A DNA stretch of 64,000 nucleotides from Candidatus Nealsonbacteria bacterium. GTDB lineage: Bacteria; Patescibacteriota; Minisyncoccia; Minisyncoccales; RBG-13-42-11. The notes under the pieces were generated by a model. It was not told where the DNA came from, ran no database searches, and saw only the letters and a program-made list of their open reading frames with translations. The stretch lies in NCBI GenBank assembly GCA_026396115.1, contig JAPLXL010000007.1:6565-70564 (forward strand), in the 5' to 3' direction. Of the stretch, positions 49,365 through 52,331 are shown piece by piece. The position numbers and the translations under genes are program-made. Positions within the stretch are counted from its first letter, which is position 1; the number at the start of each line of letters is the position of its first letter.

Positions 49365-52331
49365 TTATCTTAACACGCTTTTTAAATATCGTCCAGTGTA
49401 ACTTTTTTTGTTTTTGGCAATTTCAAAAGGCGTTCCTTCGGCCACAATATATCCTCCCTCATCTCCTCCCTCTAGTCCTAAATCTATTACATAATCTGTA
49501 TTTTTCATTACGTCTAATTCGTGTTCTATACAAATCACAGTATTGCCTCGATTAACTAATTCTCTTAAAACATATAAAAGTTTTTTAATGTCATCGGGAT
49601 GGAGGCCAGTAGTCGGTTCATCTAAAATATACAAAGTTTTGCCGGTGGCTTTTTTGGAAAGCTCGGTGGCCAATTTCACTCTCTGAGCCTCTCCGCCAGA
49701 TAAAGAGGGAGCCGGCTGGCCCAATTGAATATAACCTAATCCTACATCATTCAAGGTTTTTAATTTTTCATAAAGACCGGGGATATTTTTGAAAAATTCA
49801 AGGGCTTCCTCAACCATCATTTCCAAAACCTGGGCAATATTTTTTCCTCGATACTCAACCGCCAGGGTTTCTTGGTTAAATCTTTTTCCCTTACACTCCG
49901 AACACTGAACATAAACATCGGGCAAGAAATACATTTCAATTTTTTTCTGGCCCTGACCTTCGCAAGCTTCGCATCTTCCTCCTTTGACATTGAAAGAAAA
50001 GCGACCAGGTAAATATCCTCTGATTCTGGCTTCTTTAGTTTTTGAAAAAAGATCTCTAATATAGGTGAAAACCCCGGTATAAGTGACCGGATTTGACCTC
50101 GGAGTTCGGCCAATTGATGACTGATCAACCAAGGCTACTTTATCTAAATTTTCAGTACCTATCAGTTCTTTATACTTTCCGGGTTCTTCTTTGGCTTTGT
50201 AAAATTTTCTCATCAAAGCCCGAGCCAAAATATCATTCATCAAAGATGATTTTCCCGAGCCCGAAACTCCGGTAATACAAACAAATTTCCCAAGCGGAAT
50301 TCTAACATCAATATTTTTAAGATTGTGTTCTTGAGCACCCTTAATGACAAGGAGGTTGGTTTTTGGTTTTTGGTCCTTTACTAACTTCCAACTTCTAACT
50401 TCACAACCTACTTCCTTACCTTTAGACCAACTTCCAATTTCCACTTTCTTCCGGCCAGATAAATAATCTCCGGTAAGAGTATGGCTTTTCAGCAATTCTC
50501 TCTGTGTGCCCTGAAATATGATGCGGCCGCCATGTTTTCCTGCCCCTGGGCCAATATCAATTATCCAGTCAGCTGCCTTAATTGCGTGTTTACTATGCTC
50601 TACTACTATTACCGTATTTCCCAAATCTCTTAGTTTTTTTAAAGTTTCAATTAATCTTCCCTGGTCCCTGGCATGAAGACCAACTGAAGGTTCATCTAAA
50701 ATATATAAAACTCCGGTTAATTTTGAACCAATTTGAGTAGCCAATCTAATTCTCTGTTCTTCTCCCCCGGCTAAGGTCTCGGCTTTTCTATCTAAAGTTA
50801 GATAGTCCAAACCAACATCAATCAAAAATTGTAATCTATTGATGATTCCTTTTATTATTGGTAAGGCAATCTTGAGTTCATTGTCGTTTAAAGTTTTGTG
50901 TGGGTTTCGTGTATTGTTTCGTGCCGGTTTGGCGATTAATTCTTCGAAAAACTTTTTTACTCCTGTTATACTCATCTCAACTATTTGGTCAATCGAGTAT
51001 CCTGCCACTGTAACTGCTAATACCTCGGGCTTCAATCTTTTTCCTTGGCATTGTTCACATTTCTTTTCAATCATATATTGCTCTATTTCTTCTCTCGTAT
51101 AATCTGAATCGGTTTCATGATAACGCCTCTCAAGGCTCGGAATAACTCCCTCAAACGAGCCCGAGCCAGACAAAATAATATCAAGAATTTTCTTTGGTAA
51201 ATTTTTAACGGGCTCGTGTAAAGAAAAACGATATTTTTCAGCTAATTCCTGTAATTGCCACCAAAAATAACCCTGTCTGCCAATTTTATGAGAAGCGTGA
51301 GCCCAGGGGAAAATTGCGCCCTCTTGAATTGTTAAATTAAGATTGGGAATAACTAATGAGGGCGATACCTCTAACTTCTCTCCCAGTCCCTGACAACCAG
51401 AACAAGCGCCAAAAGGAGAATTAAAAGAAAATAATCTTGGCTCTAATTCTGGCAGAGACACACCGCACTCTTCACACCCAAAATGCTCAGAAAAGATTAA
51501 GTCATTCAGTGAGTAATCAAGTTTTTTTCTCAATGGCTTAATGACTTGCTGACCAGATGACTTAGTCACTATGACTATTCCTTTTCCCAATTTCAGCGCT
51601 GTTTCTAAAGAATCAACCAACCTTGATTTATCTAAATCTTTATCTAAAAACAATCTATCCACCACCACTTCAATATTGTGTTTTTTCTTTCTATCAAGAG
51701 CTTTTTCCAGGAGTTCTTCGACCCGATAAATAATCCCATCAATTCTTACTCTGACAAAACCGGCTCTTTGAACTTCTTCCAAAACTCCCTGATGTTCGCC
51801 TTTTTTCCCTCGGATTACGGGCCCCAAAATGATAATTTCTTTTTCTTTGCCCACCCGAGCCGCAGCGAAGGGTAAAGAAGAGGATTTATCCTCTTCGCCC
51901 AACTTCAAAACTTGTTCTGTAATTTGATCAATGGTTTGGCGAGAAACTTCTTTGCCGCATTTTGGACAATGGGGCTTGCCAATTCTGGCAAATAAAAGAC
52001 GGAGATAGTCATATATCTCCGTGATTGTACCGACCGTGGAACGAGGATTGTGAGACGCCTTTCTTTGATCAATTGAGATTGCCGGGCTTATTCCCTCAAT
52101 GGAATCCACGTCTGGTTTATCCATCACTCCTAAAAACTGTCTGGCATAAGCAGATAAACTCTCAACATATCTTCTCTGACCTTCTCCGTATAAAGTATCA
52201 AAGGCTAAAGATGATTTCCCCGAACCCGAAATCCCGGTAATAACCACTAATTTATTTTTGGGGATATCAACATTAATATTCTTCAAATTATGCACCCTGG
52301 CGCCTCTAATTTTAATATAATCTTTTGCCAT
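49365..52331 (-). CDS. uvrA: Excinuclease ABC subunit A
   Basis: [34 protein letters not shown], two ABC modules, and zinc-finger Cys clusters. Carries repeat-derived inserts. Confidence 0.95.
50359..50442. repeat. Imperfect heptanucleotide repeats inside uvrA
   Basis: Plus strand: tggtttt tggtttt tggtcct, then aacttcc aacttct aacttca ... aacttcc aatttcc. Translated (minus strand) as [29 protein letters not shown]. Confidence 0.7.
51853..51900 (+). repeat. Double-hairpin repeat family, short-form copy in frame inside uvrA
   Basis: acccgagccgcagcgaaggg-taaa-GAAGAGGAtttaTCCTCTTC-gcc. Read on the minus strand as [17 protein letters not shown]. Confidence 0.8.

What the first reader, a model, noticed from the sequence alone, without database searches (positions are those of the whole stretch)
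51853..51900. Repeat element translated in frame inside uvrA, reminiscent of the Rickettsia palindromic elements
The short-form element is read on the minus strand as [17 protein letters not shown], within ...[41 protein letters not shown]... In UvrA proteins I remember (for example E. coli ...[24 protein letters not shown]), the corresponding linker is about 16 residues shorter. This therefore looks like a ~48-nt insertion that preserved the frame of an essential repair gene.

The same nucleotide element encodes the same peptide in the unrelated PMM gene (62197..62226 plus 62126..62142). That excludes an ancestral UvrA-specific loop. In-frame selfish palindromic repeats are established for Rickettsia RPEs. 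I am not aware of a description of them for this kind of genome.
Basis: partly seen in the sequence, partly recalled or inferred. Interest (0 to 1): 0.8.

Follow-up and report, generated by a model that had tools for sequence, protein, structure and literature searches.

The report
Tiny hairpin repeat inserted inside genes
A 48-base mobile hairpin repeat has inserted, without breaking the reading frame, into the DNA-repair gene uvrA and several other housekeeping genes of an ultra-small Nealsonbacteria (CPR) bacterium, and I found no description of this repeat family in the literature I could search.

Summary
Window 51853-51900 is a 48-nt insertion in uvrA (49365-52331, minus strand), read in frame as 16 extra residues. 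Among the 120 closest UvrA homologues, only the query's own database entry and a 92%-identical relative carry it. A contig that is ~97% identical in DNA around the site shows the empty site. Solved UvrA structures have a clean 16-residue gap there.

The insert is a short-form member of a two-hairpin repeat family: ACCGAG, hairpin 1, CGAAGGTGAAGAAGAG, hairpin 2, CTTCGCC. Units are 45-57 nt. Thirteen copies lie in window 41-64 kb. More than 85 were found in MAGs of Nealsonbacteria and relatives.

Comparison with a syntenic strain (92-98% nt identity) shows clean 45, 48 or 54-nt presence/absence differences. They occur in uvrC, RNase J, glucose-6-phosphate isomerase (PGI), phosphomannomutase (PMM, a nested copy) and upstream of uvrA.

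The copies have no terminal inverted repeats and no consistent target duplication. A T-(C/T)-A-N3 motif lies on the 5' side. Hairpin stems covary and G·T pairs are rare. About 37% of copies sit exactly 2 nt upstream of a start codon.

The best reading is an active, non-autonomous element that probably moves as single-stranded DNA. It behaves like the Rickettsia palindromic elements (RPEs) but is not one. No transposase was found, and neither Rfam nor the searchable literature describes it.

The parts
51853..51900 (+). Short-form unit (48 nt) inserted in frame in uvrA. The unit is in + orientation and the gene is on the - strand. It encodes (G)[15 protein letters not shown](G).
   Evidence: Searches give the sequence. 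One search gives the CM hit at 51854-51899 (36.5 bits, E 1.7e-8). One search gives the empty site in L003. One search shows it is absent in 118/120 homologues. One search shows the 16-residue gap against PDB UvrA.
49365..52331 (-). uvrA, an intact 988-aa ORF that carries the insert at residues ~146-162.
   Evidence: Pfam UvrA_inter and UvrA_DNA-bind hits are on record for the identical protein.
62126..62227 (+). Composite in the PMM gene: an outer short-form unit, nearly identical to the uvrA copy, interrupted by a nested unit. Read in frame as [34 protein letters not shown].
   Evidence: The L001 orthologue has the outer unit only.
62144..62197 (-). Nested full-form unit (54 nt) inserted into the outer PMM unit. 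Absent from the close relative L001.
   Evidence: clean 54-nt gap; 66.2 bits, E 4e-17.
61903..63432 (-). Phosphoglucomutase/phosphomannomutase (PMM) gene, 509 aa.
   Evidence: PGM_PMM_I, II and III.
52334..52387 (+). Full-form unit (54 nt) in the divergent intergenic region. Its ACCGAG end lies 2 nt from the uvrA ATG. Absent in L001.
   Evidence: clean 54-nt gap; 63.6 bits.
54351..54404 (+). Full-form unit (54 nt) in frame in uvrC (53450-54757), read as NRASKGSEGEEEGETLFA. Absent in L001 and L101.
   Evidence: (67.6 bits).
57956..58056 (+). Composite unit forming the C-terminal extension of the cupin-type glucose-6-phosphate isomerase (PGI, 57374-58090). A second-type 45-nt module is nested in hairpin 2 at about 57993-58037 and is absent in L001.
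   Evidence: L101 lacks the whole extension.
57776..57792 (+). Remnant ACCGAG|TCCTCTTCGCC inside the PGI gene. L001 has the complete 62-nt unit here. The window copy has a 45-nt internal in-frame deletion.
59101..59145 (+). 45-nt short variant in frame in the N-terminus of RNase J (59068-60807), read as TESLDEGKKRFTSST. Absent in L001 and L101.
   Evidence: (28.9 bits).
59036..59080 (-). Degenerate or half unit abutting the 3' end of tRNA-Leu (58959-59042).
   Evidence: 32.3 bits.
60812..60902 (-). Intergenic composite between RNase J and trpS: one unit (60849-60902) plus a second-type module (60812-60856).
   Evidence: I1; 46.2 bits.
41482..41538 (+). Full-form unit between htpX and lemA. L001 has a further unit nested in its hairpin-1 loop.
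   Evidence: 68.7 bits.
42112..42238 (+). Two units between lemA and the response-regulator gene: 42112-42166 (degenerate) and 42185-42238 (short form).
63874..63952 (+). A hairpin plus a degenerate full-form unit, read in frame in a YchF-like GTPase ORF that runs off the window end. No empty-site control was available.
   Evidence: 32.3 bits; MMR_HSR1.

Best explanation
SHOWN. The 48 nt at 51853-51900 are a recent insertion of a short-form member of a dispersed DNA repeat family in a Candidatus Nealsonbacteria (CPR/Patescibacteria) genome.

The full unit is 53-57 nt. It reads (N)ACCGAG, hairpin 1 (variable sequence, always paired), CGAAGGTGAAGAAGAG, hairpin 2 (GAAGAGGAC-GAA-GTCCTCTTC), GCC(N).

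Units are gained and lost between strains that are 92-98% identical in DNA. The indels are clean and measure 45, 48 or 54 nt. Units also insert into one another.

They lack terminal inverted repeats and a consistent target-site duplication. They insert in one orientation 3 nt downstream of a T-(C/T)-A motif.

Unit lengths are mostly multiples of three, and four or five of the six reading frames are open. A hit inside a gene therefore adds 15-18 mostly hydrophilic residues instead of destroying the protein.

In UvrA the extra residues fall between a helix and a strand of what published UvrA structures define as the UvrB-binding domain. Solved structures have a 16-residue gap at this point.

INFERRED. 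The elements are selfish and non-autonomous, and they move as single-stranded DNA hairpins. The mobilising enzyme would be a structure-specific nuclease or transposase of the HUH type, as for IS200/IS605, REP-RAYT, IS91 and Helitron elements. No such enzyme was identified.

Survivors are seen where insertion is harmless: surface loops, protein termini, intergenic DNA, and the 2 nt just upstream of start codons. The last position is tolerated because this genome does not use Shine-Dalgarno (ribosome-binding) sequences.
For: Insertion status.
- Only P0001 and P0002 of the 120 closest UvrA homologues carry the insert.
- The empty site exists in L003 at ~97% nt identity.
- PDB UvrA shows a 16-residue gap at this position.
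- The AF2 model puts residues 147-163 in coil between helix 134-146 and strand 164-175, with pLDDT <50 at residues 150-161 (low-quality model).

Repeat family.
- The covariance model finds 13 copies at E<1e-4 in window 41.4-64 kb.
- It finds 12 copies at E<1e-4 (13 at E<1e-3) in the 23-kb syntenic locus L001.

Mobility.
- Clean presence/absence occurs at 52334-52387, 54351-54404, 57993-58037, 59101-59145 and 62144-62197 (window only).
- Three or more further sites are filled only in L001.
- A more distant syntenic relative (L101) has no copies in 22 kb.
- Independent hits occur in UvrA of other lineages. One is in the same loop in the opposite orientation (L102 1599-1654, E 4e-18). Another is in a different loop (L103 9126-9178).

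Structure.
- 96.6% of cells are paired across 65 units. There are 182 double-substitution cells against 54 in shuffles (0/500). Slid controls give 44-54%.
- G·T pairs are only ~2%, as expected for a DNA palindrome that folds on either strand.
- DNA folding z-scores range from -1.2 to -5.4. They are -3.1 or lower for four of the six sequences folded, including the uvrA insert on its + strand (-3.3).

Target.
- In the 5' flank, position -6 is T in 69/73, -5 is C in 54 and T in 18, and -4 is A in 64/73.
- The motif pre-exists in empty sites.

Length.
- 49/73 units are a multiple of 3 once the terminal base is counted.
- All polymorphic indels are 45, 48 or 54 nt.

Tolerance next to start codons.
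- 35 of 37 genes have no Shine-Dalgarno motif within 15 nt upstream of the ATG.
Against: - No mobilising enzyme was found. There was no IS200/IS605-like TnpA among ORFs in 743 kb of element-bearing loci. This is a weak test, because the queries were recalled from memory and only ~8 kb per hit was sampled.
- Strain-specific ORFs next to elements have no Pfam match.
- No viral contig carries the element.
- Hairpin sequences vary between copies. Known HUH transposases usually recognise a conserved hairpin.
- The conserved target motif sits 3 nt away from the junction, not abutting it as in IS608.
- The 37% of copies exactly 2 nt upstream of start codons exceeds what the short target motif alone predicts. 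A functional role or an extra targeting rule is not excluded.
- Translation of the inserted peptides is inferred from intact ORFs only.
Confidence: 0.85

Rival explanations
1. The units are primarily functional cis-acting elements. Candidates are 5'-UTR or mRNA-stability hairpins, terminators, or protein or nucleoid binding sites. On this view they are kept by selection, and the in-frame copies are incidental.
For: - 27 of 73 units sit in one orientation exactly 2 nt upstream of a start codon.
- Hairpins are conserved by covariation.
- The conserved box CGAAGGTGAAGAAGAG is nearly invariant across genomes.
Against: - Copies occur in both orientations relative to genes, inside coding regions, inside a 23S rRNA gene (L070), and nested in each other.
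- Orthologous sites are empty in strains 92-98% identical.
- A syntenic relative has none in 22 kb.
- G·T wobble is almost absent, which argues against RNA-level selection on one strand.
- There is no Rfam match.
Confidence: 0.1
2. The copies spread by recombination, gene conversion or template switching between pre-existing hairpin repeats, or by import from other strains. No dedicated transposition machinery is involved.
For: - No transposase was found.
- The uvrA target (TCTTTGCCC) resembles the element's own 3' end (TCTTCGCCC).
- Several insertions lie inside other copies.
- One internal deletion occurred between short AGTCC repeats.
Against: - Most insertion sites share no homology with the element beyond the T-Y-A motif.
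- Junctions are precise.
- The same unit length is inserted at unrelated loci.
Confidence: 0.08
3. The 16 residues are an ancestral, UvrA-specific loop lost in most relatives, or else an assembly artefact.
For: None beyond the presence of other variable inserts in the same UvrA loop in other lineages.
Against: - The insert is absent in 118/120 closest homologues and in all solved UvrA structures.
- The identical DNA element occurs in PMM and elsewhere.
- The insert appears at the same site with 3 nt differences in three independent assemblies from NCBI, JGI and ENA.
Confidence: 0.01
4. The segment is removed after transcription or translation, as an intron-like or intein-like element, so the mature UvrA lacks it.
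For: The segment forms a stable hairpin. CPR genomes are known for rRNA insertions and intein-bearing genes. For example, DnaG in L101 has Hint and LAGLIDADG hits.
Against: - 48 nt (16 aa) is far too short for any known intron or intein class.
- There is no Rfam intron match.
- Lengths being multiples of three and the open frames are what is expected if the copies are translated.
Confidence: 0.02

Closest known systems
Rickettsia palindromic elements (RPE; Ogata et al. 2000, 2002, as summarised in PMC10969869)
   Same: - A dispersed palindromic repeat in a small genome.
- Many copies inserted in frame in unrelated housekeeping genes, adding a peptide while keeping the ORF intact.
- Copies also occur in intergenic DNA.
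- The inserts fall in loops compatible with the protein fold.
   Different: - RPEs are ~100-150 bp and are restricted to Rickettsia (Alphaproteobacteria).
- These units are 45-57 nt with a two-hairpin, three-box layout, in CPR bacteria.
- A defined T-Y-A-N3 target, nested insertions and strain-level polymorphism are shown here.
- Sequence homology to RPE consensus sequences was not tested.
IS200/IS605-derived palindrome-associated elements, and HUH single-strand transposons more broadly (IS91, Helitrons)
   Same: - No terminal inverted repeats and no target-site duplication.
- Subterminal hairpins near both ends.
- Orientation-specific insertion next to a short sequence motif.
- Hairpins fold as DNA.
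   Different: - No TnpA or Rep gene was found.
- Hairpin sequences are not conserved between copies.
- The target motif is offset by 3 nt from the junction.
- The units are much smaller than described PATEs.
REP / REPIN elements mobilised by RAYT transposases
   Same: Short (tens of nt) palindromic repeats with compensatory stem changes, sometimes in inverted pairs or clusters, and present in many copies.
   Different: - REPs are extragenic, carry a conserved 5' GTAG-type tetranucleotide and a single imperfect palindrome, and flank a RAYT gene.
- These units are often intragenic, have two different hairpins in direct order, and no RAYT was seen.
Classical bacterial MITEs (Correia, ERIC, BOX, QMITE, Chunjie)
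   Same: Non-autonomous small repeats that sometimes lie within ORFs and can create in-frame fusions (PMC10969869).
   Different: MITEs have terminal inverted repeats and target-site duplications and are usually >100 bp. Neither inverted repeats nor a consistent duplication is present here.

Membership tests
Rickettsia palindromic elements (RPE) | Dispersed palindromic repeat found in frame inside unrelated protein-coding genes. | tested here: met
   In-frame copies in uvrA, uvrC, PMM, RNase J and PGI have empty-site or orthologue controls. The YchF-like copy is read in frame but has no empty-site control.
Rickettsia palindromic elements (RPE) | Element size ~100-150 bp and membership of RPE-1 to RPE-10 sequence families of Rickettsia. 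| tested here: not met
   Units are 45-57 nt. The host is Candidatus Nealsonbacteria. Direct comparison with RPE consensus sequences was not possible because no RPE library is available.
Rickettsia palindromic elements (RPE) | The inserted peptide is expressed in the mature protein. | not testable with these tools
   Only intact ORFs are seen. Metaproteomics or RNA-seq is needed.
MITE | Terminal inverted repeats. | tested here: not met
   The ends, ACCGAG... and ...CTTCGCC, are not reverse complements of each other.
MITE | Target-site duplication of fixed length. | tested here: not met
   Empty versus filled comparisons show 0-1 nt of duplication, with a 4-nt ambiguity at uvrA only. The flank matrices show no matching bases.
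IS200/IS605-type (HUH) single-strand transposon derivative | Subterminal hairpins, with no TIR and no TSD. | tested here: met
   Two hairpins are supported by covariation (96.6% paired, 0/500 shuffles) and by DNA folding. TIRs and TSDs are absent, as above.
IS200/IS605-type (HUH) single-strand transposon derivative | Orientation-specific insertion 3' of a short conserved target sequence. | tested here: inconclusive
   T-(C/T)-A is conserved at -6..-4 in 64-69 of 73 flanks and pre-exists in empty sites. It is offset 3 nt from the junction, unlike IS608 or ISDra2.
IS200/IS605-type (HUH) single-strand transposon derivative | A Y1 transposase (TnpA) in the genome whose element ends match the repeat. 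| tested here: inconclusive
   phmmer with remembered IS200 and IS608 TnpA sequences found nothing in 743 kb of element-bearing loci. No complete genome could be scanned.
REP/REPIN-RAYT | Extragenic single imperfect palindrome with a conserved 5' tetranucleotide, flanking a RAYT gene. | tested here: not met
   Units are frequently intragenic and have two distinct hairpins and three conserved boxes. No RAYT-like hit was found (weak test).
Curated structured RNA families (Rfam 15) | A match to a covariance model. | tested here: not met
   Only tRNAs and chance-level hits were found in 40000-64000 at E<=1.
UvrA (host gene identity) | Tandem ABC ATPase modules with UvrA-specific inserted domains and zinc modules. 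| tested here: met
   The ORF is 100% identical to an annotated UvrA with PF17755 and PF17760. The N-terminal 310 residues match solved UvrA chains 9gxk, 3pih and 2r6f with E-values down to 1e-113.

The most novel reading that the evidence does not exclude
These units would be a previously undescribed class of ultra-small (45-57 nt) mobile hairpin elements specific to Nealsonbacteria and related CPR lineages.

- They are frame-neutral by design, with multiple-of-three lengths and mostly open frames.
- They are mobilised as single-stranded DNA by an enzyme not yet recognised.
- They target T-Y-A-N3 sites, with a preference for the melted promoter or start region of near-leaderless genes.

On this reading they are a major and ongoing source of protein-length variation in ultra-small genomes. 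UvrA ranges from 926 to 1030 aa among close relatives. They would also be a source of 5'-UTR and rRNA insertions.
Probability: 0.35. Interest if true: 0.85.

Novelty: new variant of a known kind. Interest (0 to 1): 0.72.

Why it matters
CPR/Patescibacteria have some of the smallest and most gene-dense bacterial genomes and are usually described as streamlined. [quoted passage not shown] This case has a much smaller unit and a cleaner mechanistic signature: a target motif, nested hits, and strain-level gain and loss.

Practical consequences:
- It explains part of the sporadic length variation of conserved proteins in these lineages.
- It warns annotators and phylogeneticists about non-homologous insert columns and spurious N- or C-terminal extensions.
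- It gives strain-resolving markers for metagenomics.
- It points to an unidentified hairpin-specific DNA enzyme in organisms with very few recognisable transposases.

Tried and rejected
- Rfam scan of 40-64 kb at E<=1 found only tRNAs.
- A viral-contig scan with the family pattern gave 0 hits, so there is no evidence for a phage source.
- A search for IS200/IS608-like TnpA among all ORFs of 70 aa or more in 743 kb of loci gave no hit.
- Pfam on strain-specific ORFs beside elements (L003:4264-4641 and L001:16091-17632) found no family.
- I tested whether the different insert in the same UvrA loop of a more distant relative (P0035, in L101) is a repeat there. No second copy occurs in 22 kb and there is no R1 hit. 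It stays unexplained.
- I considered whether the target triplet is read by complementarity to the TGA/TAA in the central box (GGTGAAG versus GGTAAAG). Inspection of copies with either variant showed no correlation, so I dropped the idea.
- I considered a Shine-Dalgarno or promoter function for start-adjacent copies. No consistent SD-like or -35/-10 motif lies at a fixed distance inside the unit, and the genome as a whole lacks SD motifs.
- I considered integron attC sites, CRISPR and TIGR arrays. There are no inverse core sites. The only array seen (L047) has identical units and an assembly gap.
- The AlphaFold model of UvrA was poor (mean pLDDT 61.9, pTM 0.39). I used it only for the local secondary-structure context and ran no fold search.
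Full report
**1. The observation**

The minus strand of window 51700-52060 reads ...[43 protein letters not shown].... This lies inside a single intact ORF, 49365-52331(-), of 988 aa. The protein is 100% identical to an NCBI entry named excinuclease ABC subunit UvrA from a Candidatus Nealsonbacteria MAG. 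The host is therefore a CPR/Patescibacteria bacterium with about 35% G+C.

The 51-nt string has no second full-length copy in the window. Its two halves recur in the phosphomannomutase (PMM) ORF 61903-63432(-). The 30 nt at 62197-62226 are identical, and the 20 nt at 62126-62145 have one mismatch. No such matches appeared in shuffled sequence. In the PMM gene the two halves are separated by 54 nt and read [10 protein letters not shown] / TELSQKAKVKKKAELSS / PFAVARV.

**2. It is an insertion**

I aligned the 120 closest UvrA homologues (73-100% identity). Only the query's own database entry (P0001) and P0002 (92% identity, GEENKSSSSPFAAARV) have the 16 residues. P0003 (90% identity) reads KLG-KEQEI, and the other 117 also lack the insert.

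The contig carrying P0003 (L003) is ~97% identical in DNA around the site and shows the empty site. It reads ...CTTTGCCC^AACTTC..., against ...CTTTGCCC[48 nt]AACTTC... in the window. The inserted block is therefore 51853-51900, with a 4-nt GCCC ambiguity.

Against solved UvrA structures, the alignment shown (9gxk_A) has a clean 16-residue gap between chain residues 167 and 168. This position lies in the region that published UvrA structures define as the UvrB-binding domain (established knowledge, not tested here).

An AlphaFold model was of low overall quality (mean pLDDT 61.9). Locally it puts residues 147-163 in coil between helix 134-146 and strand 164-175, with pLDDT below 50 at residues 150-161.

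**3. The repeat family**

Repeat finding and inspection showed that the uvrA insert is a short form of a modular unit. The long form reads ACCGAG, hairpin 1, CGAAGGT(G/A)AAGAAGAG, hairpin 2, CTTCGCC.

A pattern for the central and 3' boxes was scanned over one genome per bacterial species. About 85 were in Nealsonbacteria, Parcubacteria, Minisyncoccales or similarly small low-G+C MAGs. These include at least eight in the complete chromosome CP179888.1. About a dozen hits in high-G+C genomes look like chance or a conserved coding segment.

From these hits and the window I collected 73 distinct full units. In an alignment of 65 of them, the two proposed hairpins are paired in 96.6% of cells. There are 182 cells with changes on both sides, against 54 in shuffles (0 of 500 reached the observed value). 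Slid controls give 44-54% pairing. G·T pairs are only ~2% of cells. That fits a DNA palindrome able to fold on either strand better than an RNA selected on one strand. As single-stranded DNA the units fold with z-scores from -1.2 to -5.4. Four of the six sequences folded score -3.1 or lower.

A covariance model (R1) scored over the whole window without filters gives these results:

| Region searched | Copies found |
|---|---|
| Window 41.4-64 kb | 13 at E<1e-4 |
| Window 33387-33430 | 1 weak hit |
| Window 1-33 kb | none |
| L001 (23-kb syntenic locus of a close strain) | 12 at E<1e-4 (13 at E<1e-3) |
| L101 (22-kb syntenic locus; UvrA 78% identical) | none |

Rfam has no matching family.

**4. 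Evidence that the units move**

L001 (JGI Ga0315294_10000216) is collinear with window 39-63 kb at 92-98% nucleotide identity. Pairwise alignments show clean differences.

Present only in the window:
- 54 nt at 52334-52387, 2 nt upstream of the uvrA ATG.
- 54 nt at 54351-54404, in uvrC.
- 45 nt at about 57993-58037, nested in hairpin 2 of a copy at the C-terminus of glucose-6-phosphate isomerase (PGI).
- 45 nt at 59101-59145, in the RNase J N-terminus.
- 54 nt at 62144-62197, nested in inverted orientation inside the PMM copy.

Present only in L001:
- A unit nested in the hairpin-1 loop of the 41482 copy.
- A 48-nt short form at another uvrC site.
- A unit 2 nt upstream of the ATG of the holin-like gene.
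- A complete 62-nt unit in the PGI gene, where the window keeps only ACCGAG|TCCTCTTCGCC (57776-57792). The window form is a 45-nt in-frame internal deletion.

Protein alignments with L001 and L101 orthologues confirm that each of these is an in-frame gain or loss of 15-18 residues in an otherwise conserved protein.

UvrA itself has been hit repeatedly in relatives. Peptides diagnostic of the unit in several frames occur at five or more other positions. At the DNA level, L102 carries a full unit in the same loop but in the opposite orientation (1599-1654, E 4e-18). L103 carries one in another loop (9126-9178).

**5. Insertion signature**

- The two ends are not inverted repeats.
- Empty versus filled comparisons show no consistent target duplication (0-1 nt).
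- The 5' flank has a strong motif. Position -6 is T in 69/73. Position -5 is C in 54 and T in 18. Position -4 is A in 64/73. Three variable A/T-rich bases follow before ACCGAG.
- The first base after the unit is T in 49/73.
- The motif is already present in the empty sites.
- It also holds for the intragenic hits in L102 (TTA-AAA) and L103 (TCA-AAG).
- Counting the terminal base, 49 of 73 units have a length that is a multiple of three (57 or 54 nt are commonest). All polymorphic indels are 45, 48 or 54 nt, including the intergenic one.
- The consensus is open in four or five of the six frames, depending on subtype.

**6. Where copies sit**

Of the 73 units, 27 have the ACCGAG end 0-5 nt from the ATG of an ORF of at least 60 aa on the other strand. 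The gap is exactly 2 nt in 24 of those 27. At least 9 units lie deep inside long ORFs. Several more form C-terminal extensions.

The start-codon geometry follows from the target motif, because TCAT-NN is the complement of NN-ATGA. The frequency, however, is far above the share of TCA sites that overlap start codons.

Part of the explanation is tolerance. 35 of 37 genes in the window have no Shine-Dalgarno motif within 15 nt upstream of the ATG. Many have -10-like boxes ending 7-11 nt upstream of the ATG, which suggests near-leaderless transcripts. An insertion there displaces no ribosome-binding site.

Whether melted promoter DNA is also a preferred single-stranded target is my speculation.

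**7. Mechanism**

*Shown:* this is a family of non-autonomous repeats that is gained and lost between close strains, inserts in a fixed orientation next to a short motif, folds as two DNA hairpins, and is tolerated in frame.

*Inferred:* movement occurs as single-stranded DNA, catalysed by a structure-specific enzyme. The combination of no TIR, no TSD, subterminal hairpins and an orientation-specific target is the signature of HUH-type elements (IS200/IS605, REP-RAYT, IS91, Helitrons).

*Not found:* the enzyme itself.
- Strain-specific ORFs next to units have no Pfam family.
- No viral contig carries the unit.

*Differences from known HUH elements:* the hairpin sequences vary, the target is offset by 3 nt, and the units are very small.

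**8. Comparison with known systems, and novelty**

In behaviour this is the closest parallel I know to the Rickettsia palindromic elements. A 2024 MITE review still treats those as the outstanding case of in-frame repeat insertion, and speculates that similar processes may exist in other prokaryotes (PMC10969869).

It is not an RPE by size, architecture or host. It fails the defining features of MITEs (TIR, TSD) and of REP/RAYT elements.

Full-text searches combining CPR, Patescibacteria, Parcubacteria or Nealsonbacteria with palindromic, MITE, repeat and in-frame terms returned nothing relevant. The closed-genome paper on Ca. Nealsonbacteria DGGOD1a mentions only transposase repeats longer than 400 bp. 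Subscription-only literature could not be searched.

I rate it a new variant of a known kind.

**9. Verdict**

The finding is considerably broader than a single uvrA insert. The main open points are the mobilising enzyme, proof of translation, and the cause of the start-codon association.

Noticed in passing
L070 2618-6149 (Minisyncoccales MAG JBNAUV010000019.1): Two identical units (3589-3644 and 4441-4496), with identical flanks, lie inside a 23S rRNA gene. The gene is ~600 nt longer than the Rfam model. The family, or a larger insert carrying it, therefore also occurs in rRNA genes.
   Followed up: partly
window 1-33000: No copy of the repeat family occurs in the first ~33 kb. This stretch is a low-G+C (26-35%) block of glycosyltransferase and polysaccharide genes plus defence genes. 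The next 23 kb hold 13 copies. It may be a recently acquired island.
   Followed up: partly
window 28017-29508 (-): A two-gene CBASS-like defence module: a SMODS nucleotidyltransferase (28612-29508) and a Cap15 cyclic-dinucleotide receptor-domain effector (28017-28628).
   Followed up: partly
window 29968-32974 (+): A LexA-like repressor ORF followed by a large ORF and a 260-aa ORF. By eye they look like a DNA methyltransferase and restriction enzyme pair. They were not scanned against any library.
   Followed up: no
window, upstream of 37 ORFs: Shine-Dalgarno motifs are essentially absent (35 of 37 genes have none within 15 nt upstream of the ATG). Several genes have TATAAT-like boxes ending 7-11 nt upstream of the ATG, which suggests near-leaderless mRNAs.
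   Followed up: partly
window ~52300-52450: Gene orientation switches here (uvrA on the minus strand, capA-like on the plus strand), and GC skew changes sign at the same point (cumulative minimum near 50-52 kb). This could be a replication origin or only a gene-strand effect. Unit orientation does not switch here (10 plus, 3 minus overall).
   Followed up: no
window 57993-58037 and 60812-60856: A second 45-nt module type (…CGTCTCGTCTTCAACTCGACGGAYGAAG…) occurs twice in inverted orientation. One copy is nested in hairpin 2 of a unit and absent from the close strain. It may be a sister family.
   Followed up: partly
L047 4823-5049 (TPA MAG CAYYRI010000008.1): A tandem array of at least four identical units with a 57-nt period lies next to a run of N. 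It may be real amplification or an assembly artefact.
   Followed up: no
UvrA homologues P0035, P0051, P0078, P0086, P0088 (L101 10430-10525): A different insert of ~25 residues (…YSHGRIRI…) occupies the same UvrA loop in other Parcubacteria. It is not repeated within the 22 kb available and does not match model R1. It may belong to another element family.
   Followed up: partly
window 1-534; 1972-2063 and 5976-6067: 261-nt tandem direct repeats lie at the window start (80-90% identity). A 92-nt direct repeat (93% identity) contains a terminator-like hairpin and follows two neighbouring genes. Both are unrelated to the hairpin family.
   Followed up: no
window 59036-59080 next to tRNA-Leu 58959-59042: A degenerate unit abuts (overlaps by a few nt) the 3' end of tRNA-Leu, and a weak hit lies beside tRNA-Asn (33387-33430). 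tRNA 3' flanks may be another tolerated site.
   Followed up: no
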